Assembly: GCA_029858205.1 (NCBI GenBank)
Contig: JAOUFM010000003.1
Location: 210,936 to 274,935, forward strand
Length of the DNA stretch: 64,000 bases
Direction of reading: 5' to 3'
From: Deltaproteobacteria bacterium
Lineage (GTDB): Bacteria; Desulfobacterota; GWC2-55-46; DRQE01
Below the pieces are notes generated by a model. It worked only from the letters and a program-made list of their open reading frames with translations. It searched no databases and was not told the DNA's origin. Shown here in pieces: positions 17,254-24,161 of the stretch. Both the position numbers and the translations under genes were made by a program. Numbering within the stretch: position 1 is the stretch's first letter; every line of letters starts with the position of its first letter.

Positions 17254-17919
17254 TCAAACCTGTCCTTTTTTGCTGATGTCTATGATCCGTGCCTGAACAA
17301 CCCCTGCCTCTATCAATGCCTTCGAAAGTTCCGCGCTTCTATAAAACGAAGTTATTACTATGGCCTCGGCTGCGCCGTCCCTGAGCTTTTCAATACCGAC
17401 AACCGGCATATCGAAAAACTTTTCGGTTCTTTCGATATCCGAAATGCAGACAAGCTCCAACCCGGCCTCCTTTAAAGACAGATACGCTATCTCGGCAACC
17501 TCATCTACGCCGCAGAAAGCGACTCTGCTTATGCCAAGCTCCTTCAACCTTGCAAACAGTTCAGCGAAATCCGTCCTCGCAACCCTGTAGAGGTTGGTAA
17601 AATTCCTCAGATGTTCGTAGGTGAGACGGGTCTTTTCAAGAAAACCATTTGGCGTAAGATAATATTTGTAGCGCTTTGCGGGAATACCGGAGACTGTTAT
17701 GTAACCTTTTGAAATGAGATTCTTTATGTAGGAATTTATGAGTCCCAGCGCAATACCGAGGTTTTTGCTTATTTCACGCTGGGTTAGGTCGCCGTTTCGC
17801 GATATCTCGTCAAGCACGAGAAGCGAACGGTACCCATCCATATGGCCGTTTTTATCCTCGCTGTTCATACTATGAACATACCATTTAATCAGGCATTTTG
17901 TCAAGTAAAACGCGTTCAT
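17254..17919 (-). CDS. Winged-helix transcriptional regulator with a C-terminal Rossmann-like domain. It is the last gene before the glycan cluster and divergent from the novel cassette.
   Basis: 'LDEISRNGDLTQREISKNLGIALGLINSYIKNLISKGYITV' wHTH. The real start is possibly the internal Met at 17868. Confidence 0.45.
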   Translation of the reverse strand: MNAFYLTKCLIKWYVHSMNSEDKNGHMDGYRSLLVLDEISRNGDLTQREISKNLGIALGLINSYIKNLISKGYITVSGIPAKRYKYYLTPNGFLEKTRLTYEHLRNFTNLYRVARTDFAELFARLKELGISRVAFCGVDEVAEIAYLSLKEAGLELVCISDIERTEKFFDMPVVGIEKLRDGAAEAIVITSFYRSAELSKALIEAGVVQARIIDISKKGQV

Positions 17920-18050
17920 GCAATGAACTGGCCGCGCGCAAAAAATTAGTAATTTACATTTGCCGGGGTTTTATTGTATGGTATATTACTTAAAATTCCC
18001 CGTGCTGTTTTATTAAAAAATATTCCAACTTCGCTATCTGAAAAGTAAAT

Positions 18051-18080
18051 TTGGCCATGCCAGTCTTTTTATGCTACAAT
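18051..18080 (+). promoter_or_regulatory. Candidate sigma-70 promoter for the 5-gene cassette: -35 TTGGCC (18051-56), 18-nt spacer, extended -10 TGcTACAAT (18072-80).
   Basis: Read directly from the sequence, about 22 nt upstream of the ATG at 18103; the leader is short with a weak SD. Confidence 0.3.
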
Positions 18081-18102: not shown

Positions 18103-20238
18103 ATGAATGCCAGAGATTTTGAAAAAGAGATAAAAATCCACATCGAAGCGCGCTACCCCATTTTGTGGCTCGTATCGTTCGAAGAGCGCCGGGTCGAGCG
18201 CATCGTCGAAAACCTCTGCAATACCAACGGGTTCAAGTTCTGGACATGGTCCGTGTCAAAAGGGCTCTACGGTAGCGACAAAAAAAAGAAAGAGCCCGTT
18301 GGCAGGGAAAAAATCCTTACCTCCATTGAGGAAAAGATAGTAAAGAACGAGGAAATCAATAACTTCTTCCTTTTAAAGGACATTGCCGGGTATTTCCAAT
18401 CCCACGAGTTCCTAAGAAAGTTTCGCGACATCCCGGGCACCATCGAGGACTATCGCTCGCTTAACACCGTCTGCATCCTCTCGCCAACACTTAGCGAGAT
18501 TCCGCCGGAGCTCGAAGAAGACATCGTGGTAATCGAGCTTAGCCTGCCCGAGTACGACGAAATCGAGGAGATGGTAAACACGAACTTTTCCAAATACATC
18601 CCCGCGTCGTGGCATTCGTCTACGAGGTCGGTTCTCTACAAATCGCTACAGGGCCTTTCTCTAGATAACATCAAAAGGGTCGTAAGAAAGGCAATCAGCC
18701 TGAATAGAGGCGTGCTGAACGAAGAATGCATCAAGTACATACAGGACGAGAAGCAGCAAATCATAAAAAAGCAGCAGATACTCGATTACTACCCCTACAG
18801 GGAAACTATCGACCACATCGGCGGCCTCGATGAAATAAAAAAATGGTTCGTCGAGAGAGAGCATGTCTTCCGTTTAAGCAAGGGCAAAATCGAAACTCTC
18901 GGCCTTGACGTTCCAAAAGGCCTCATGCTAATTGGCGTTCCGGGCTCCGGGAAAAGCCTCTGCTGCAAGGCCCTTGCCGGCATCTGGAACCTTCCGCTTC
19001 TAAGAATGGACGTAGGCCGTCTCTTTGGCTCGACAGTCGGAGAGTCCGAGAAAAATATTCGTAAGGCCATACAGCTTGCAGAGGCGGTAAGCCCCTGCAT
19101 AATGTGGATCGACGAGATAGACAAGGCATTCGGCGGAATATCCGGTTTCCAGGGGGATTCGGGCACGCAGCTAAGGGTGTTTGGCACCTTCATCACATGG
19201 CTGCAGGAAAAGGACAAACCCGTCTTTGTCATAGCAACTGCCAACGACCCGAAAAACCTTCCTCCCGAGCTATGGAGAAAAGGCCGCTACGACGAAGTGT
19301 TCTTCGTCGATCTTCCAAGCGCCGAGGAAAGAGACGAAATATTCAAGATACACCTCGAAAGAAGAGGACAAAAACCGTCGAACTTCCGCTTAAAGGAACT
19401 CTCGCAGAACTCGCAGGGCTACACGGGCGCCGAGATAGAGCAGGCCATAAAGGACGCGGTCGTTGCCACATTCAACACTCTGCACGAGGGAAAAGAAGCA
19501 AAAGAGGCCGACGCAATAATAGACGGCACCTTAACCCTCTCACTCGACACGGCAACGCTTCTCGAAGCGATACGGCACATAACGCCGCTCTCGGTTCTGA
19601 AAAAAGAGGAGATCGAGGCGCTTCGCGAATGGAGCCAGCAAAGGGCGCGGCCCGCATCGAAGTCTCTCTTCATGCAGCGCGCAGAGATGCTCTCTGACGC
19701 GGAAAAGCGCACTATCGCCATACACGAGGCCGGACATATAATAATGATGTGGCATCACTTCAATGGCACGCCGGTCTTCGTGAGCATAGATAACTACAAG
19801 GACACCTCTGCATTCACCGGCAAGAGCGAAAGCCTCGTAAACACACTTACCAAGCGCGACCTGGAAAAGGAAATCGGCGTGATGCTTGGCGGCATGGTGG
19901 CCGAAGACGAGGTCGGCGGAGCGGACTCGAAAACTGTTGGCGCCTCGCACGACCTTAGCGACGCAACGGCCAAGGCAAGAAGAATGGTCGTGGAATACGG
20001 CTTTGGCGACATAATGAAGAACACGAGCCTTGTAGAGCTCCAGGAATACGCCATGATGTCCGGGAAAGACATTCTCGAGGACATACAGAAGATAATCCAC
20101 GGCGCAAAGGAAGAGACCGAGTCCGTCATTTCGAAGAACAAAGCGCTTCTCGAAAAGCTCGCGGACAAGCTCGTGGCGGAGATACTCGTAAACGGCGAGG
20201 GATTAAGGAATTTCCTTACGCAGCACAATCTGGAATAA
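18103..20238 (+). CDS. Soluble FtsH-like AAA+ ATPase-zinc metalloprotease (Ycf46-like N-domain + AAA + peptidase M41), no transmembrane anchor
   Basis: Walker A 'GVPGSGKS', Walker B 'IMWIDEID', sensor-1 'ATANDP', Arg-finger region 'RKGRYDEV', 'HEAGH' zinc motif and downstream 'GASHDLSDATAKARRMVVEYGFG' (FtsH 'GASNDIERATEIARKMV'). The N-terminal ~240 aa ('ARYPILWLVSFEERRVERIV') are non-membrane. Confidence 0.8.
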   Translation: MNARDFEKEIKIHIEARYPILWLVSFEERRVERIVENLCNTNGFKFWTWSVSKGLYGSDKKKKEPVGREKILTSIEEKIVKNEEINNFFLLKDIAGYFQSHEFLRKFRDIPGTIEDYRSLNTVCILSPTLSEIPPELEEDIVVIELSLPEYDEIEEMVNTNFSKYIPASWHSSTRSVLYKSLQGLSLDNIKRVVRKAISLNRGVLNEECIKYIQDEKQQIIKKQQILDYYPYRETIDHIGGLDEIKKWFVEREHVFRLSKGKIETLGLDVPKGLMLIGVPGSGKSLCCKALAGIWNLPLLRMDVGRLFGSTVGESEKNIRKAIQLAEAVSPCIMWIDEIDKAFGGISGFQGDSGTQLRVFGTFITWLQEKDKPVFVIATANDPKNLPPELWRKGRYDEVFFVDLPSAEERDEIFKIHLERRGQKPSNFRLKELSQNSQGYTGAEIEQAIKDAVVATFNTLHEGKEAKEADAIIDGTLTLSLDTATLLEAIRHITPLSVLKKEEIEALREWSQQRARPASKSLFMQRAEMLSDAEKRTIAIHEAGHIIMMWHHFNGTPVFVSIDNYKDTSAFTGKSESLVNTLTKRDLEKEIGVMLGGMVAEDEVGGADSKTVGASHDLSDATAKARRMVVEYGFGDIMKNTSLVELQEYAMMSGKDILEDIQKIIHGAKEETESVISKNKALLEKLADKLVAEILVNGEGLRNFLTQHNLE

Positions 20239-20248
20239 GGGCCCCGCT

Positions 20249-20587
20249 ATGTCGTTTTTCACAAAGCTCAACACCGAACTCAAAAACAAACAGTACGTGC
20301 TCGCTGCCATAGCCGCCCTTAAGCAGACAGGCGAGATAAAGAACTACGCCATAAACGAAAAGAAGGAAAGCGTCGAAATAAACCGCGCCGGCGACATTAT
20401 ACAGGTAGTAAAAACAAAGACCGGCGAGTACGAACTGCAGGGAGACGCAAGAGTGGTAAGCGCCTTCTCGAGCAGGCTAAAGCAGCTCTACGCGTACGAG
20501 GCAATCAAAGACAACATGCCGCTGGACTTCGAGATAGCCGAAGAGATAGAAACCGCCGGAGAGATCCGCATCGTGCTTAAAGGCTAA
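20249..20587 (+). CDS. Small conserved hypothetical protein (112 aa), possibly DUF1257/Ycf35-like
   Basis: Sits 10 nt after the protease gene. It is charged, Lys/Glu-rich and cysteine-free. The family assignment is from memory only. Confidence 0.4.
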   Translation: MSFFTKLNTELKNKQYVLAAIAALKQTGEIKNYAINEKKESVEINRAGDIIQVVKTKTGEYELQGDARVVSAFSSRLKQLYAYEAIKDNMPLDFEIAEEIETAGEIRIVLKG

Positions 20588-20589
20588 AT

Positions 20590-20775
20590 ATGGGTAAAGA
20601 GATAAAAATAAAGATAACACCCGACGGCAAGGTCGAGATAGATTCGACCGTGTTCAAGGACTGTAAAGAGGTGGCCGAACACCTATCGAAGGTCATAGGA
20701 AAGGTCGAGGTCTTCACCATAAAAGAAGAACACGAGCGCGAAGAAAAACTTCGCATAAAAAAAGGCGACAAATAA
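20590..20775 (+). CDS. Small hypothetical protein (61 aa), possibly DUF2997-like
   Basis: Begins 2 nt after the previous stop (translational coupling). 'KIKITPDGKVEIDSTVFKDCKEVAEHL...' with a Lys/Glu-rich tail. Confidence 0.35.
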   Translation: MGKEIKIKITPDGKVEIDSTVFKDCKEVAEHLSKVIGKVEVFTIKEEHEREEKLRIKKGDK

Positions 20776-20779
20776 GCAC

Positions 20780-21364
20780 ATGGCATCGTCGATATTCATA
20801 GACACGCACGCGATAATCGAGAGGTCGCGTGTAAACGGCCCAGGACAGAGGCTGGTGGTCTTTTTCCAGGGCTGTCACAGGAACTGTCCTGGCTGCTTCA
20901 ATCCGGCAACGCACTCAATCGGCACTGGCGTCAAATACGGCATACGGGAGATATTCGCGCGTTTCCTCTCTAAAAACGTAAGCGGCTTAACTGTTAGCGG
21001 AGGTGAGCCGTTTCTGCAAAGCGCGGCGCTCTGTGAACTGCTTAAAACCGCAAAACGCGAACACGGCCTTACGACCGCCGTGTACACGGGATTCACGATA
21101 GAGGAAATACGTTCATCAACGGAGCTTAGCCCTGCGCTCGAGCACATAGACGTGCTCATAGACGGGGCGTTCGACGAAAACAACACAGAAAGGACAACTC
21201 TTGCAAGAGGTTCCACAAACCAGCGCCTTCACTTTCTCTCCGGCGTTTATTCGATAGATGATTTTATTTTGCCAGGCAAAGCGGAGATAATAATCAACAA
21301 GGACGGTTCGGTGGTAGAGACCGGATTTTCGAAGCCGGCGGGAATAAACTCCATCCTCTTGTAA
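20780..21364 (+). CDS. NrdG-family radical-SAM activase (glycyl-radical-enzyme activating protein-like, single 4Fe-4S cluster)
   Basis: 'VNGPGQRLVVFFQGCHRNCPGCFNPATH' (CX3CX2C), 'GLTVSGGEPF', 'AVYTGFTIEEI', 'VLIDGAFDEN...RGSTNQRLHFL' are colinear with E. coli NrdG. Confidence 0.75.
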   Translation: MASSIFIDTHAIIERSRVNGPGQRLVVFFQGCHRNCPGCFNPATHSIGTGVKYGIREIFARFLSKNVSGLTVSGGEPFLQSAALCELLKTAKREHGLTTAVYTGFTIEEIRSSTELSPALEHIDVLIDGAFDENNTERTTLARGSTNQRLHFLSGVYSIDDFILPGKAEIIINKDGSVVETGFSKPAGINSILL

Positions 21365-21377
21365 AACGACCCACACC

Positions 21378-24161
21378 ATGACGATAGAGAACTTCTTCAG
21401 GGACAATTCCGGCATAGCGCGCACAAGCGCAGTTGAGCAGCGCGACGCGGCGCTAAAATACCTGCGCTCGCTGCCAGAGTCTAGCGACAGGGCCGAGGAC
21501 TTCAAATCGGCGTACGCGTACATACGAAACATCAGCGACGCCGAAGAAATGCGAAACGCACTCATCGAGCTTGCCATCACGATGCCAAAGCACGGCCCGT
21601 GCATGGACCTGTTTAAAGAAGTGTTCCCCGGCGCCATCAACTCCACAGACGCCATACCCGAGCCCATACACCGCAAATCAACGCTTACGCGCCTTGTAGA
21701 CTGCGTGCCCGACAAACCGGAGTACGCCGAGGCATACGCGCGCGTCGTGGAAAAATACATCGAGGCCGCAGACAAGATAGACGACCGCTTTGCGCGGCGC
21801 TACGCGCTTGCGGAAATTGCATCGAGACTCAAACACAGGGACGAATACGAAGCCCTCATGCTCCATGCCATGAAGGTGAGCCTCGGGTTTGCCGGCCTTC
21901 CGGGCTTTAGGCAATACTCGCTTCCCGAGATAGCAAGGGAACTTCCGAAAAGCTGCGACGTGGAGGTCTACAGAAACCACACATTCCTCGGGCTTGCGTT
22001 CTCGCTGCCGCACAGGGGCGAGTTCCTCGAACTCTTCAAAAAGGCCCTGACCACGGCCATCGAGTCAACGGAGCACATCGTTGAGCCGTATTACAAGAAA
22101 TACGCCCTTCTCTTCATGGCCAACAGGCTGCCCGAGACAGCAGAGTTTTTACCGCTAAGAAAGAGCGCTTTCAGGGCCGCCCTTGCCTCGGTCGACACGC
22201 TCGCCGACAGCTTCGCCAGGCAGTACGGATATAACGAATTCCTAAAGGACGTGCCAAAGACGCGCGAATTCTCCGACATACTGCTCGATACGGTCGAGAA
22301 GAGCCTTCCGTTCTTTTCTCTAAGAAGCCAGATGTCGGACTACGAGCCCATAGAGATACTCGACCGGATACTGATCGTCGCGGACAAAAAAATATCGGAT
22401 TCGAAGAAAAAACATTACACCCGCTTCCATTACGCCGATTTTTTCCTGAAACAGCTGAACCTGATAGCCGATAACTTAAACGATGTGCGCCTTCTGGAAA
22501 TTCTAAGGCCCTACACGCACGTATGGGTAAGGCCAAAAACTTTCAGGGACTCGATACGCAAGGTGTTCGACAAGGTCTCGTCCTTAAAAGGCAGATACCA
22601 CGGCGCCGAAGTAGAGCGTCCACTTTATGTCAGCGAGGCATGCCTCGGCATAGACAAACGAAGCCGCACGGCATCCGTTATGGCGGATACGCGCGAAGGC
22701 TACGCGCTCTCGATAGACCTTGGCGCCACCAATACCGTTGTAATGCTTAAAAAACCCGGGGCATTCCCGGAATTCGTCAACATAGAAGGATTATCCGAAA
22801 CCATCGGAAGCGTTGCCTTCATAAGCACGGCAGTAGACAAGAACAACGACTTGATAGGCGCTGCGGCGCCGGCCCAGTCGCGCTCGAACAACATAAAAAA
22901 ACTGTTCATGGAAGGCGACGAAGAGGGGCGCGAGCTCATCGAGAAGTTTTTCCGCATCCTGTACTCCAGAATAAAGGAATCTGTCGAGGTGCCCGGGTTT
23001 TTCAAGAAACTTTCCGGCAGGATTTTCGATACCGTTTCCGTGACAGTGCCGGTCGGGTATACGGATTACAGCGGCGAACTTACCAGAATCATCGAAAAAT
23101 ACGCGGGCAGCGCGCGCATAAAGCTCGTGGAAGAGCCGCTTGCTGCGGCGATAGGCTATAACGTGGCGGAGAAAAAGGAAAAATTCGTCCTTGTTCTCGA
23201 CTTTGGCGGCTGCACGCTCGACCCGATGCTTTTAAGGCTCTCTACCGACATGACACACGTCATAGCAAAGCCCGACAGATCCAAGATGCTTGGCGGGCGC
23301 GACATAGACCGCTGGGTGGCCGAGTACGTGAACGAAAAGCATAACCTTAGGACCAACCCTTCGGGGCACGAGGCCCTGACTGCGGCAGAGGCGCTGAAAA
23401 TAGAACTTAGCGCCAAAAACTCGGCGAAGTTCGTGTTTGGCGGCCGCGATATCGCGGAACTTACGCGCATAGAGTTCGAGGAGCTTCTCTCGCGCAGAGG
23501 GTTCTACAGCGACATAGACAGGGAACTTTCGAACGTGCTAAAAAAGGCTTCGAAGCTCGGCGTTTATAAATCCATGATAGAGGCCGTCATCATAACCGGG
23601 GGCTCTTCGCAGATACCGTCGTTCAAGGAAAAGATATCTCACTACTTCCACAACCTGGCCGTGCAAAACGCGATATACGACCACAGCCCGCTGTCGTCGG
23701 TCGCAAGGGGCGCGGCCCTCTACGGCACGGCCTCGGTGCTGGACCGCCACCTGGCCATGGCGTACGCAATAAAGCACATTGCAAGGGAAGAGGAAAAACA
23801 GTTTGCCTACGAAATCGTACTCGAAAAGGGCGAATCGCTTCCGTTCAAAAAGACCTTGCGCTTTACTCCTGCCATGACGCTCGGTGGACAGAAGGAAATA
23901 TTTCTCGAACTCTTCGAGGTGCCCGATTCCCTTATCGTACGGCGCTGGATATCCGAGGGCGGCATGGAGTTCATAAAGCAAATACTTAAGCACACGCCCG
24001 ACGAACTCGATCTGAGGGCTTTCAAGACCGTCACGCTTTCATTCGACGCTCCTATAGAAGGAAGCACAGACATCACATTTATAGTGGAAGAGAACGGACG
24101 ATTGAAGGTGCGCTACGAAAAAGACGGCCGCGAACTTGCAACCGACATACACCTTCAGTAA
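21378..24161 (+). CDS. Large Hsp70/actin-fold ATPase with a ~430-aa N-terminal alpha-helical repeat domain
   Basis: Hsp70 phosphate-1 'IDLGATNTVV', phosphate-2 'VLDFGGCTLDPML', adenosine motif 'VIITGGSSQIPSF', 'LVEEPLAAAIGY'; 927 aa. Confidence 0.75.
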   Translation: MTIENFFRDNSGIARTSAVEQRDAALKYLRSLPESSDRAEDFKSAYAYIRNISDAEEMRNALIELAITMPKHGPCMDLFKEVFPGAINSTDAIPEPIHRKSTLTRLVDCVPDKPEYAEAYARVVEKYIEAADKIDDRFARRYALAEIASRLKHRDEYEALMLHAMKVSLGFAGLPGFRQYSLPEIARELPKSCDVEVYRNHTFLGLAFSLPHRGEFLELFKKALTTAIESTEHIVEPYYKKYALLFMANRLPETAEFLPLRKSAFRAALASVDTLADSFARQYGYNEFLKDVPKTREFSDILLDTVEKSLPFFSLRSQMSDYEPIEILDRILIVADKKISDSKKKHYTRFHYADFFLKQLNLIADNLNDVRLLEILRPYTHVWVRPKTFRDSIRKVFDKVSSLKGRYHGAEVERPLYVSEACLGIDKRSRTASVMADTREGYALSIDLGATNTVVMLKKPGAFPEFVNIEGLSETIGSVAFISTAVDKNNDLIGAAAPAQSRSNNIKKLFMEGDEEGRELIEKFFRILYSRIKESVEVPGFFKKLSGRIFDTVSVTVPVGYTDYSGELTRIIEKYAGSARIKLVEEPLAAAIGYNVAEKKEKFVLVLDFGGCTLDPMLLRLSTDMTHVIAKPDRSKMLGGRDIDRWVAEYVNEKHNLRTNPSGHEALTAAEALKIELSAKNSAKFVFGGRDIAELTRIEFEELLSRRGFYSDIDRELSNVLKKASKLGVYKSMIEAVIITGGSSQIPSFKEKISHYFHNLAVQNAIYDHSPLSSVARGAALYGTASVLDRHLAMAYAIKHIAREEEKQFAYEIVLEKGESLPFKKTLRFTPAMTLGGQKEIFLELFEVPDSLIVRRWISEGGMEFIKQILKHTPDELDLRAFKTVTLSFDAPIEGSTDITFIVEENGRLKVRYEKDGRELATDIHLQ

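What the first reader, a model, noticed from the sequence alone, without database searches (positions are those of the whole stretch)
20249..20775. Pair of translationally coupled mini-proteins (112 aa and 61 aa) embedded between protease and radical SAM genes
Both are highly charged (Lys/Glu-rich) and lack signal peptides. The second starts 2 nt after the first stops.

- Possible families: they feel like the DUF1257/Ycf35 and DUF2997 pair. I recall those being neighbours of AAA ATPases in cyanobacteria, but I cannot verify this here.
- Possible roles: adaptors or substrates for the AAA protease, regulators (anti-sigma or antitoxin-like), or targets of the adjacent radical-SAM enzyme.
- Handle for modification: the 61-aa protein has a single Cys in 'VFKDCKEV'.
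- No glycyl-radical motif: none (RVSGY-type) is present in either protein.
Basis: partly seen in the sequence, partly recalled or inferred. Interest (0 to 1): 0.6.

Follow-up and report, generated by a model that had tools for sequence, protein, structure and literature searches.

The report
Conserved mini-protein pair in five-gene machine
The two small ORFs are real, conserved genes: divergent members of the function-unknown families DUF1257 (Ycf35) and DUF2997, which always travel together and belong to a widespread, apparently undescribed five-gene set with an AAA+ ATPase (here fused to a zinc protease), a radical-SAM activase and an Hsp70-like ATPase.

Summary
Both ORFs exist exactly as described (20249-20587, 112 aa; 20590-20775, 61 aa; TAA-AT-ATG). 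They are real genes: about 50 homologues each, 76 loci in species-representative genomes, and 2-2.7x more change at third codon positions.

The 112-aa protein is a divergent DUF1257 (hhalign 99.2%, E 8e-20, though below Pfam's cut-off). The 61-aa protein is DUF2997 (22/22 orthologues hit).

In this lineage the order AAA-M41 / DUF1257 / DUF2997 / NrdG-like radical SAM / Hsp70-like holds in 61/61, 71/71, 66/66 and 53/53 testable loci.

The same five families, without M41, recur in shuffled order around canonical DUF1257 in metagenomes, on plasmids and partly in cyanophages. A Nostoc plasmid encodes a DUF1257-DUF2997 fusion.

The Cys is the only invariant DUF2997 residue, with or without a radical SAM neighbour. 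Tight translational coupling is not conserved (median gap 32 nt).

Best reading: an obligate heteromeric accessory pair of the AAA+ machine. The mechanism is inferred, not shown. I found no paper describing this system.

The parts
17953..18080 (+). Cluster of sigma-70-like promoter matches just upstream of the first gene of the operon (consensus matches only)
   Evidence: no + strand terminator-like site between 18103 and 24161; intergenic gaps of 10, 2, 4 and 13 nt
18103..20238 (+). Soluble AAA+ / M41 zinc-metalloprotease fusion, 711 aa. It has an N-terminal ~230-aa family-specific domain, an AAA core (Walker A GVPGSGKS at 18934-18957; Walker B at 19102-19122; non-aromatic pore loop FGSTVGESE at 19024-19050) and an M41 domain (HEAGH at 19723-19737).
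   Evidence: Pfam AAA 104.7 bits, Peptidase_M41 70.8 bits; no TM segment; residues 6-521 are 38-40% identical to the M41-less AAA next to canonical DUF1257/DUF2997; motifs conserved in 60/61 loci; present in 61/61 testable loci
20249..20587 (+). 112-aa divergent DUF1257 (Ycf35-like) protein. Motifs: MSF start (Ser2 invariant; Phe/Tyr replaces the canonical His3), QxYAY at 20483-20497, subfamily motif PLDFE at 20519-20533, C-terminal LKG.
   Evidence: AlphaFold2 pLDDT 85.4, topology beta-alpha-beta4-alpha plus a C-terminal hairpin
20590..20775 (+). 61-aa DUF2997 protein: beta-hairpin (ITPDGKVEID), invariant Cys25 (FKDCKEV, 20653-20673), helix ending in LG (20695-20706), then a charged, predicted-disordered tail (residues 38-61)
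   Evidence: Cys present in 73/73 subfamily loci and in all canonical contexts
20780..21364 (+). 194-aa NrdG/PflA-type radical SAM activase-like protein (NGPGQR at 20834-20851; CX3CX2C at 20873-20896; GGEP at 20999-21010)
   Evidence: Fer4_12 117.6 bits; TIGR02491 NrdG 117.3 bits, below the 126.1 cut-off; 36-44% identical to radical SAM genes next to canonical DUF1257/DUF2997; present in 66/66 testable loci, CX3CX2C in 70/70
21378..24161 (+). 927-aa Hsp70-like ATPase. It has a ~440-aa N-terminal extension with no family match, then an Hsp70 nucleotide-binding domain (IDLGATN at 22713-22733; DFGGCTLD at 23199-23222; TGGSSQIP at 23595-23618) and a post-NBD beta domain.
   Evidence: Pfam HSP70 94.9 bits; 28% identical over residues 553-911 to the 530-aa Hsp70-family genes next to canonical DUF1257; present in 53/53 testable loci, with one exception, L028

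Best explanation
The two ORFs encode a divergent DUF1257 (Ycf35-like) protein and a DUF2997 protein. Together they act as an obligate heteromeric pair of small subunits of a cytosolic, ATP-driven five-component machine.

The other three parts are as follows. First, a COG0464-type AAA+ unfoldase with its own N-terminal domain, which in this lineage alone is fused to an active-looking M41 zinc protease, giving a soluble FtsH-like protease. Second, a small NrdG/PflA-type radical SAM activase. Third, a non-canonical Hsp70-like ATPase.

The most likely role of the pair is accessory: an adaptor, co-chaperone or regulatory cap. It would dock on the AAA+ engine, and in canonical operons probably on the Hsp70-like protein too, and couple these engines to the iron-sulfur/radical enzyme. 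The universally invariant Cys of DUF2997 would be the key functional residue (redox, metal or radical chemistry).

Shown here: family identity, purifying selection, invariant co-occurrence and gene order, a natural fusion of the two domains, conservation of catalytic motifs in all three enzymes, and recurrence of the same five families in distant taxa.

Inferred, not shown: physical complex formation, adaptor rather than substrate status, and any chemistry at the Cys.
For: (1) Family identity.

(2) Real genes.

(3) In 76 species-level loci the five genes keep one order and strand: AAA-M41 61/61, DUF2997 71/71, rSAM 66/66, Hsp70-like 53/53. Flanking genes differ between loci.

(4) Nostoc plasmid pC052_F encodes one 188-aa protein with DUF1257 (30.4 bits) followed by DUF2997 (39.2 bits), both above cut-off. 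An AAA gene lies two genes downstream. A fusion of this kind argues for physical interaction.

(5) In 80 canonical DUF1257 loci, DUF2997 lies within 1.5 kb in 27/32 testable cases. Recurrent patterns are Hsp70-D1-D2-rSAM (11), AAA-D1-D2 (11) and D1-D2-rSAM (7). About 10 loci carry all five genes in different orders, for example L092.

(6) The most constant partner of the pair is the AAA, not the rSAM. AAA + pair without rSAM or Hsp70 is seen in Bacillus, Planktothrix and Nostoc plasmids and in L134, L145 and L151.

(7) Catalytic motifs are conserved: HExxH and Walker A/B in 60/61 loci, CX3CX2C in 70/70, plus the Hsp70 phosphate and adenosine motifs.

(8) AlphaFold2 folds the 61-aa protein poorly on its own (pLDDT 57, disordered tail). 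That fits a protein which folds on a partner.

(9) In cyanobacteria the pair sits next to the [4Fe-4S] ferredoxin Fed7. Fed7 binds a DnaJ-like protein and is fused to DnaJ in algae. ycf35 and ycf46 are each lost mainly in freshwater red-algal plastids, so their presence tends to coincide (PMC4284462, PMC5940233).
Against: Gene neighbourhood cannot separate an adaptor from a substrate or a regulator.

The AAA pore loop lacks the usual aromatic residue (FGSTVGESE), so classical threading is not assured.

The canonical His3 of DUF1257 is Phe or Tyr here, so this subfamily may work differently from canonical members.

The Fe-S/rSAM partner is frequent but not universal.

The canonical survey uses the 80 best metagenome hits, many on short contigs, so its fractions are rough and phylogenetically biased.

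Specific orthology of the AAA to plastid or cyanobacterial Ycf46 was not testable. Only the broad IMG label 'SpoVK/Ycf46/Vps4 family' was found.
Confidence: 0.5

Rival explanations
1. The small proteins, above all DUF2997 with its invariant Cys and near-invariant Gly13/Gly37, are the protein substrates of the adjacent NrdG-type radical SAM enzyme. They would carry a protein radical or a radical-installed modification. The Hsp70-like and AAA(-M41) ATPases would present, reset or destroy the modified protein.
For: The rSAM has the full glycyl-radical-activase signature, and such enzymes act on proteins. No glycyl-radical enzyme is in the cassette or window, so its target is unassigned. The rSAM gene is glued to the pair: 66/66 here, and in canonical loci it sits directly after DUF2997 or even between the two small genes (H70-D1-rSAM-D2). 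Cys25 is invariant in 73/73 loci.
Against: The pair and its invariant Cys persist in many loci with no rSAM within reach: Bacillus, Planktothrix, Nostoc and Pseudanabaena plasmids, phage P-SSM2, and L134/L145/L151. DUF2997 from rSAM-linked loci (n=30) and unlinked loci (n=12) shares one consensus, with no extra conserved residue in the linked set. No RVxG[FYW]-type motif is present. The conserved folded domain is unlike a RiPP precursor.
Confidence: 0.2
2. The cassette is a conflict or stress-response system (anti-phage or toxin-antitoxin-like). The small proteins would be labile regulators or sensors, antitoxin- or anti-sigma-like, whose destruction by the AAA-M41 protease releases an effector activity.
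For: The AAA core resembles the defence ATPase IetA (PADLOC 4.5e-32; NCBIfam IteA 3.6e-29). The same families occur on plasmids and in cyanophages. Restriction-modification modules are inserted inside the operon in two genomes, and PIN/antitoxin-like genes abut it in another. The 61-aa protein has a disordered charged tail that could serve as a degron. An IS200-like transposase flanks L092.
Against: Neither small protein hits any PADLOC model, and no IetS-like partner is present. The IetA match is weaker than the matches to Cdc48/FtsH AAA cores. In this lineage the cassette is single, syntenic, well conserved (AAA median 72% identity) and flanked by housekeeping genes. Its GC content equals that of the flanks. 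No obvious toxin or effector domain is present.
Confidence: 0.15
3. The pair is an iron-sulfur or redox carrier or scaffold, by analogy with IscU-HscA/HscB. DUF2997's Cys would ligate or relay a cluster or electrons to the [4Fe-4S] partner (radical SAM here, Fed7 in cyanobacteria). The Hsp70-like ATPase would drive transfer and the AAA would recycle the scaffold.
For: 4Fe-4S proteins recur as neighbours: rSAM in 66/66 loci here, in L007, L092 and others, a Fer4_12 protein in Paenibacillus, and Fed7 in cyanobacteria. The best NCBIfam matches of the Hsp70-like domain are to the Fe-S chaperone HscA (1e-28, versus 1e-23 for DnaK). [quoted passage not shown] The Cys is invariant.
Against: A single Cys per 61-aa chain is present and there is none in the 112-aa protein. 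The canonical His3 that might be a second ligand is lost in this subfamily. HscA scores are far below its cut-off (97-100 vs 620-709 bits). No J-domain or IscU-like gene is in the cassette.
Confidence: 0.1
4. The two ORFs are spurious small ORFs in an intergenic gap between the protease and radical SAM genes.
For: Both fall below Pfam's curated cut-offs when scanned alone, and neither hits NCBIfam.
Against: Both are conserved in length, motifs and position in 71-76 independent genomes. Third-codon-position substitutions are in excess, and profile-level homology links them to two established families.
Confidence: 0.01

Closest known systems
DUF1257 / Ycf35 (Pfam PF06868; PHROG 20456)
   Same: Full-length homology (hhalign 99.2%, E 7.7e-20). 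Shared N-terminal Met-Ser start, QxYAY motif and C-terminal G-x-I-x-I/V-L strand. Similar size, and obligate adjacency to a DUF2997 gene.
   Different: Below Pfam's gathering score (15.8 vs 22.2 bits). His3 is replaced by Phe or Tyr. The central 'IGF...ADWW' region is shortened. It has a subfamily-specific invariant PLDFE motif and an LKG C-terminus. The subfamily spans only about three 50%-identity clusters in 1.84 billion representatives. The family itself has no known function.
DUF2997 (Pfam PF11211; PHROG 23133)
   Same: N-terminal beta-hairpin (I-x-I-x-x-DG-x-V), the single invariant Cys, and a helix ending in LG. The gene sits directly beside DUF1257.
   Different: FKDC replaces the canonical G-x-G-x-x-C. 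The tail is charged (KEE/KDE-rich) instead of the canonical PEYY motif. The window protein scores 20.1 vs 24.1 bits. No function is known.
Cyanobacterial cluster DUF2997 - ycf35 (DUF1257) - fed7 ([4Fe-4S] ferredoxin), from the Cassier-Chauvat & Chauvat 2014 review (PMC4284462)
   Same: The same two small families sit side by side next to a 4Fe-4S protein. Fed7 is tied to the Hsp70 system through a DnaJ-like interactor.
   Different: The gene order is reversed (D2-D1). The partner is a ferredoxin instead of a radical SAM enzyme. No AAA or Hsp70 gene is in the cluster. Its function is likewise unknown.
FtsH (AAA+ / M41 membrane protease)
   Same: AAA module followed by an M41 domain with HEAGH and a GASHD third-ligand region. 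Motifs are conserved in 60/61 loci.
   Different: No transmembrane or periplasmic domain. TIGR01241 scores 173 vs a 600 cut-off. There is a 230-aa N-domain shared with M41-less AAA proteins. The AAA core is closer to Cdc48/VAT D2 (1e-51) than to FtsH (1e-37). The pore loop has no aromatic residue. A canonical FtsH exists separately in a related genome (L004).
NrdG / PflA glycyl-radical-enzyme activases
   Same: Small size, NGPGxR...GCxxxCxxCxN and GGEP motifs. The best family match is NrdG (117.3 bits).
   Different: Just below the NrdG cut-off (126.1). No NrdD/PFL-type glycyl-radical enzyme or motif is in the cassette or window. It forms its own group that travels with DUF1257/DUF2997 (36-44% identity across phyla).
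Bi-chaperone and adaptor systems (DnaK-ClpB; Cdc48 with small adaptor proteins; HscA/HscB-IscU). This is a functional analogy only, drawn from general knowledge.
   Same: An Hsp70-type ATPase and an AAA+ unfoldase are encoded together with small accessory proteins and an Fe-S client.
   Different: No J-domain protein, and no GrpE except on the Pseudanabaena plasmid. No homology links the small proteins to known adaptors. No experimental link exists.
MoxR-vWA 'FtsH ternary systems' (Kaur et al. 2020, PMC7159879)
   Same: An FtsH-type AAA with a degenerate N-terminal module, sometimes with a radical SAM effector and a small peptide gene.
   Different: The defining MoxR and vWA genes are absent here. 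DUF1257, DUF2997 and Hsp70 are not part of those systems.

Membership tests
DUF1257 / Ycf35 (PF06868) | Score at or above Pfam's gathering threshold (22.2 bits) | tested here: not met
   15.8 bits, E 0.016; 9 of 23 orthologues give sub-threshold hits, best E 0.0011
DUF1257 / Ycf35 (PF06868) | Full-length profile-level homology to bona fide members | tested here: met
   hhalign 99.2%, E 7.7e-20, 111 columns. A profile search of 1.84 billion representatives returns 125-aa proteins as full-length hits; the 10 scanned all score 39-106 bits on PF06868. PHROG 20456 at 8.3e-9.
DUF1257 / Ycf35 (PF06868) | N-terminal Met-Ser-His start (Ser2 and His3 invariant in canonical members) | tested here: not met
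   Ser2 is kept, but His3 is Phe (Tyr in three loci) throughout the subfamily
DUF1257 / Ycf35 (PF06868) | Adjacent DUF2997 gene | tested here: met
   71/71 testable subfamily loci; 27/32 canonical loci
DUF2997 (PF11211) | Score at or above Pfam's gathering threshold (24.1 bits) | tested here: inconclusive
   The window protein scores 20.1 bits. All 22 orthologues hit, best E 6.5e-7, and several carry a precomputed PF11211 assignment.
DUF2997 (PF11211) | Single invariant Cys after the N-terminal hairpin; LG at the end of the helix | tested here: met
   Cys25 is the only invariant column across 12 sequences from all contexts and is present in 73/73 subfamily loci
FtsH | N-terminal transmembrane helices and an extracytoplasmic domain; equivalog score | tested here: not met
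   Maximum 19-residue hydropathy 1.17, no FtsH_ext domain; TIGR01241 173 vs 600 bits
FtsH | AAA module plus M41 domain with HExxH | tested here: met
NrdG-type glycyl-radical activase | CX3CX2C cluster motif, GGEP SAM motif, N-terminal GPGxR | tested here: met
   CX3CX2C in 70/70 loci
NrdG-type glycyl-radical activase | Equivalog score and a cognate glycyl-radical enzyme | tested here: not met
   TIGR02491 117.3 vs 126.1 bits; no R[IVT][CSAV]G[FYW] motif in any real gene of the 64-kb window. The rest of the genome was not available.
Ycf46-type AAA ATPase | Orthology to plastid or cyanobacterial Ycf46 (slr0374 / Synpcc7942_0417) | not testable with these tools
   No reference Ycf46 sequence was available. 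Only the broad IMG/COG label 'SpoVK/Ycf46/Vps4 family' on the cyanobacterial partner was found. The link comes from memory plus the shared pattern of ycf35 and ycf46 loss, mainly in freshwater red-algal plastids.
AAA family that accompanies DUF1257/DUF2997 | Shared N-terminal ~230-aa domain plus AAA core | tested here: met
   40% identity, E 1e-120 to the L084 AAA; 38%, E 4e-118 to the Pseudanabaena AAA, in both cases from residue 6; PHROG 8638 at 1.6e-18 for the N-domain
Autonomous glycyl-radical proteins (GrcA/YfiD-like) | RVxG[FYW] glycyl-radical loop | tested here: not met
   Absent from both small proteins. 'GDARVVSAF' lacks the Gly and is not conserved as such.
Known anti-phage systems (PADLOC; IetAS) | Model hits for the components; IetS protease partner | tested here: not met
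   No hit for either small protein. The AAA matches IetA only over the generic AAA core. No IetS is present.
RiPP precursor peptide | Short leader plus a variable core, restricted to rSAM-containing clusters | tested here: not met
   Both are conserved folded domains found across phyla and often without any rSAM gene
MoxR-vWA FtsH ternary system (Kaur 2020) | MoxR AAA and vWA genes in the operon | tested here: not met
   None among the five genes or their immediate neighbours

The most novel reading that the evidence does not exclude
The five-gene set (Hsp70-like ATPase, DUF1257, DUF2997, NrdG-type radical SAM activase, COG0464-type AAA+) is a previously undescribed, widely distributed protein-radical or redox system, found in Thermodesulfobacteriota, Nitrospirota, Acidobacteriota, cyanobacteria, Bacillota megaplasmids and partly in cyanophages. 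In it the tiny DUF2997 protein, held by DUF1257, carries or relays a radical or redox state on its invariant Cys. The activase installs that state. The two ATPases load, reset or, in the M41-fused version, destroy it. This would give the long-orphan plastid/cyanobacterial genes ycf35, and possibly ycf46, a biochemical function.
Probability: 0.12. Interest if true: 0.85.

Novelty: new variant of a known kind. Interest (0 to 1): 0.6.

Why it matters
DUF1257 (Ycf35) and DUF2997 are old orphan families present in cyanobacteria, algal plastids, phages and many bacteria, and neither has an assigned function. In the library searched, only five papers mention either family.

This window shows a cleanly operonic, strictly conserved version in which the pair is wired to three recognisable enzymes. 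Follow-up shows the same five families co-occur across phyla, and that the two small proteins are naturally fused in one case.

That turns 'what does Ycf35 do?' into concrete experiments: complex formation with the AAA+ and Hsp70-like ATPases, radical SAM assays with the pair, and proteolysis by the M41 fusion.

The combination of a glycyl-radical-type activase with Hsp70-like and AAA+ ATPases, and with no glycyl-radical enzyme present, is unusual and has no published precedent that I could find.

Tried and rejected
- **PDB sequence searches.** Profiles of both families found nothing meaningful.
- **The 61-aa model.** It is too poor (pLDDT 57) for a fold search.
- **Homologue search with the AAA N-domain.** It returned mostly fragments and uninformative names.
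- **First genome scan.** The broad canonical alignment A3 had no conserved stretch to search with.
- **Other libraries.** NCBIfam and PADLOC gave no hit for either small protein. Rfam gave none in the operon.
- **Glycyl-radical motif.** It was found only in short spurious ORFs.
- **Further Fe-S partners.** None was found among unannotated neighbours on the Bacillus, Nostoc and Planktothrix plasmids or in P-SSM2.
- **rSAM-linked versus unlinked DUF2997.** The comparison showed no distinguishing conserved residue.
- **Apparent Cys loss.** Five homologues seemed to lack the Cys, but this was a parsing artefact of GTG/TTG starts.
- **An error of my own.** My first distance tally for canonical loci was distorted by stop-to-stop ORF coordinates. 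I replaced it with explicit coordinates.
- **Literature.** Searches for a described system combining these parts found none. The Kaur 2020 FtsH ternary systems were rejected because MoxR and vWA are absent.
Full report
**Observation.** The window holds two same-strand ORFs exactly where stated: 20249-20587 (112 aa) and 20590-20775 (61 aa). They are separated by TAA-AT-ATG. They lie inside a tight run of five + strand genes with gaps of 10, 2, 4 and 13 nt:
- an AAA+/Peptidase_M41 fusion (18103-20238, 711 aa);
- the two small ORFs;
- a Fer4_12/radical SAM protein (20780-21364, 194 aa);
- an Hsp70-like protein (21378-24161, 927 aa).

Promoter-like matches cluster at 17953-18080, and no + strand terminator-like site interrupts the run. 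No Rfam family matches. GC content equals that of the flanks. None of the five proteins has a transmembrane segment. The 61-aa protein is 48% charged with one Cys (C25). The 112-aa protein is only 29% charged and has no Cys.

**Are they real genes?** Yes.
- Each has about 50 homologues at 52-80% identity in other metagenome-assembled genomes.
- A scan of one genome per GTDB species found 76 loci, mostly Thermodesulfobacteriota ('Deltaproteobacteria') MAGs with some Nitrospirota MAGs.
- ORF length, start (MSF[YF]) and motifs are conserved.
- Differences per codon position are 0.30/0.23/0.60 for the 112-aa gene and 0.24/0.22/0.56 for the 61-aa gene.

**Family identity.** Scanned alone, both fall below Pfam's curated cut-offs: DUF1257 15.8 vs 22.2 bits, DUF2997 20.1 vs 24.1 bits.

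For the 112-aa protein:
- An exhaustive profile search of 1.84 billion representatives found only three close clusters. Beyond those, the full-length hits were ~125-aa proteins (E 3.5e-5 to 1e-3). Ten of them were scanned against Pfam and all are bona fide DUF1257 (39-106 bits).
- A profile-profile comparison gives 99.2% probability, E 7.7e-20, over 111 columns.
- The protein hits the phage family of canonical DUF1257 (PHROG 20456, 8e-9).
- Differences from canonical members: His3 becomes Phe or Tyr, the central region is shorter, and there is an invariant PLDFE motif.

For the 61-aa protein, all 22 orthologues hit PF11211 (best E 6.5e-7).

**Structure.**
- AlphaFold2 gives a confident model of the 112-aa protein (pLDDT 85, pTM 0.76) with topology beta-alpha-beta4-alpha plus a C-terminal hairpin.
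- No significant structural neighbour exists in the PDB or BFVD, and no solved homologue exists by sequence.
- The 61-aa protein alone models poorly (pLDDT 57): a hairpin, a helix and a disordered charged tail. This is compatible with folding on a partner.

**Neighbourhood in this lineage.** tblastn of the five window proteins against the 76 loci gave the following:

| Partner | Found / testable |
|---|---|
| AAA-M41 (with M41 domain) | 61/61 |
| 61-aa gene | 71/71 |
| Radical SAM | 66/66 |
| Hsp70-like | 53/53 |

All are on one strand and in one order, while the flanking genes differ between genomes. The apparent exceptions:
- L028 has other genes where the Hsp70-like gene should be.
- L043 and L070 have restriction-modification modules inserted between the 61-aa and radical SAM genes.
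- L010 and L023 have small inserted genes upstream and then the contig ends.

The 112-to-61 gap is 1-294 nt (median 32), so tight coupling is not conserved.

Catalytic motifs are conserved: HExxH and Walker A/B in 60/61 loci, CX3CX2C in 70/70, and the Hsp70 phosphate and adenosine motifs. The single failing locus was a parsing artefact. The AAA pore loop is FGSTVGESE, without the usual aromatic residue.

**The same system elsewhere.** Canonical DUF1257 genes show the same partners.
- **Single contigs:** AAA(519 aa)-DUF1257-DUF2997 in L084, and DUF1257-DUF2997-rSAM in L007.
- **AAA:** the window AAA-M41 aligns from residue 6 to 521 with these M41-less AAAs (38-40% identity, E 1e-118 to 1e-120). 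M41 is therefore a lineage-specific C-terminal addition.
- **Radical SAM:** the rSAM proteins are 36-44% identical over their full length.
- **Hsp70-like:** these proteins align beyond the nucleotide-binding domain (E 1e-31 and 5e-32).
- **Survey:** in a metagenome survey of 80 canonical loci, analysed with HMMs built from the collected proteins, DUF2997 lies within 1.5 kb in 27/32 testable loci. Patterns were Hsp70-D1-D2-rSAM (11), AAA-D1-D2 (11), D1-D2-rSAM (7), Hsp70-D1-D2 (5) and Hsp70-D1-rSAM-D2 (3). About ten loci carry all five genes in various orders. M41 appears in 0/80.
- **L092:** this contig, likely from a Blastocatellia MAG, carries Hsp70(530)-DUF1257-DUF2997-rSAM(191)-AAA(515), confirmed by Pfam.

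Annotated records add further contexts:
- Pseudanabaena plasmid: grpE-Hsp70-DUF1257-ABC-like ATPase-hypothetical-DUF2997-AAA.
- Bacillus and Paenibacillus ~205-215-kb plasmids: AAA-hypothetical-DUF1257-(hypothetical)-DUF2997. In Paenibacillus a Fer4_12 protein lies two genes upstream of the AAA.
- Planktothrix plasmids: AAA...DUF2997-DUF1257.
- Prochlorococcus phage P-SSM2: DUF2997-DUF1257.
- Treponema plasmid: DUF1257 alone in a phage-tail-like cluster.

Nostoc plasmid pC052_F encodes a single 188-aa protein with DUF1257 followed by DUF2997, both above Pfam cut-offs, and an AAA gene lies two genes downstream. Such a natural fusion is classical evidence that the two proteins work as one unit.

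**The Cys.** Cys25 is the only invariant column in an alignment of DUF2997 proteins from all contexts, including those with no radical SAM gene nearby. It is present in 73/73 subfamily loci. DUF2997 proteins from rSAM-linked (n=30) and unlinked (n=12) canonical loci share one consensus. The Cys is therefore a family-wide functional residue, not a handle specific to this radical SAM enzyme.

**Literature.**
- Only five papers in the library mention either DUF.
- A review records a conserved cyanobacterial cluster DUF2997-ycf35(DUF1257)-fed7. It also shows that the [4Fe-4S] ferredoxin Fed7 binds a DnaJ-like protein and is fused to DnaJ in algae (PMC4284462).
- ycf35 and ycf46 (an AAA ATPase) are each lost mainly in freshwater red-algal plastids, so their presence tends to coincide (PMC5940233).
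- Ycf46 sits in a strongly stress-induced three-gene operon of unknown function.
- I could not test whether the AAA here is a specific Ycf46 orthologue. Only the broad COG label was found.
- No paper combining these five components was found. The MoxR-vWA 'FtsH ternary systems' are a different thing.

**Interpretation.** The identity and reality of the genes, the invariant five-gene set, the fusion, and the recurrence across phyla are shown. Everything about mechanism is inferred.

The pair's most constant partner is the AAA+. The radical SAM and Hsp70-like genes are frequent but dispensable neighbours. I therefore favour (about 0.5) an obligate heteromeric accessory module of the AAA+ engine, acting as adaptor, co-chaperone or regulatory cap. 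It would couple an iron-sulfur/radical enzyme to two ATP-driven remodelling machines. In this lineage the engine gained an M41 protease, which would turn remodelling into degradation.

Rivals:
- the pair is the radical SAM's protein substrate or radical carrier (0.2);
- the pair consists of labile regulators of a conflict or stress system (0.15);
- the pair is an Fe-S or redox scaffold served by an HscA-like Hsp70 (0.1);
- the ORFs are spurious (about 0.01, refuted).

**Limits.**
- No multimer prediction was possible, and two fold libraries were unavailable.
- The canonical survey is the top 80 of at least 495 hits, many on short contigs.
- Only 64 kb of this genome was visible, so a glycyl-radical enzyme elsewhere cannot be excluded.

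Noticed in passing
L043 8720-10401; L070 7601-10173; L010 161-1211: Restriction-modification modules are inserted inside the operon, between the DUF2997 and radical SAM genes, in two different MAGs. One is a Dam-like methyltransferase plus an endonuclease. The other is a Dcm methyltransferase, an endonuclease and Vsr. PIN/antitoxin-like small genes sit directly upstream of the DUF1257 gene in a third. This may be an insertion hot spot or a hint of a defence-island character.
   Followed up: partly
L089 5001-5567 (Nostoc sp. C052 plasmid pC052_F, WP_179070797.1): A natural single-chain fusion of DUF1257 and DUF2997 (188 aa), annotated only as 'DUF2997 domain-containing'. An AAA ATPase gene lies two genes downstream, with nrdJ nearby.
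   Followed up: yes
L087 2864-8808 (Pseudanabaena galeata plasmid pPg_01): The operon-like run is grpE - Hsp70 family - DUF1257 - ABC/SMC-like ATPase (AAA_21/AAA_15) - hypothetical - DUF2997 - AAA. It is the only context seen with a GrpE nucleotide-exchange factor and an extra ABC-like ATPase.
   Followed up: partly
window 21378-22700 (residues 1-440 of the Hsp70-like protein): A ~440-aa N-terminal extension has no Pfam or PHROG match. It contains three copies of a [DE]-x-[FY]-[AY]-[RK]-[RKQ]-Y-[AG]-[LY] motif (residues 136, 236, 277), which suggests helical repeats. The 530-aa canonical Hsp70-like partners lack it.
   Followed up: no
window 19024-19050: The AAA pore-loop-1 region reads FGSTVGESE in all 63 copies examined. 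It lacks the aromatic residue that usually grips substrate in classical AAA unfoldases.
   Followed up: no
L085 5001-5408 (Treponema succinifaciens plasmid pTRESU01): A DUF1257 gene sits alone, with no DUF2997 or AAA within 5 kb, inside a phage-tail-like cluster of sheath, tube and baseplate genes.
   Followed up: no
L086 and L090 (Bacillus licheniformis and Paenibacillus urinalis ~205-215-kb 'plasmids'): The AAA-DUF1257-DUF2997 module lies next to ThyX and helicase genes in what look like phage-like replication and nucleotide-metabolism regions. In cyanophage P-SSM2 the pair lies beside the DNA polymerase gene.
   Followed up: no
window 17254-17919 (- strand): A divergently oriented winged-helix (HTH_24/MarR-like) regulator gene lies 183 bp upstream of the operon. 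This neighbour is not conserved in the other contexts inspected (L001, L004), so a dedicated regulatory role is doubtful.
   Followed up: partly
L004 1593-3470: A related genome carries a canonical membrane FtsH (with FtsH_ext domain) about 2.4 kb from the cassette. The soluble AAA-M41 is therefore an additional protease, not the housekeeping FtsH.
   Followed up: partly
L151 1165-4224 and 4956-6587; L170 2-3283: Some canonical loci have unusually long (about 1,000-aa) AAA ORFs, or two AAA genes flanking the DUF1257-DUF2997 pair. These may be further fusions or tandem AAA variants.
   Followed up: no
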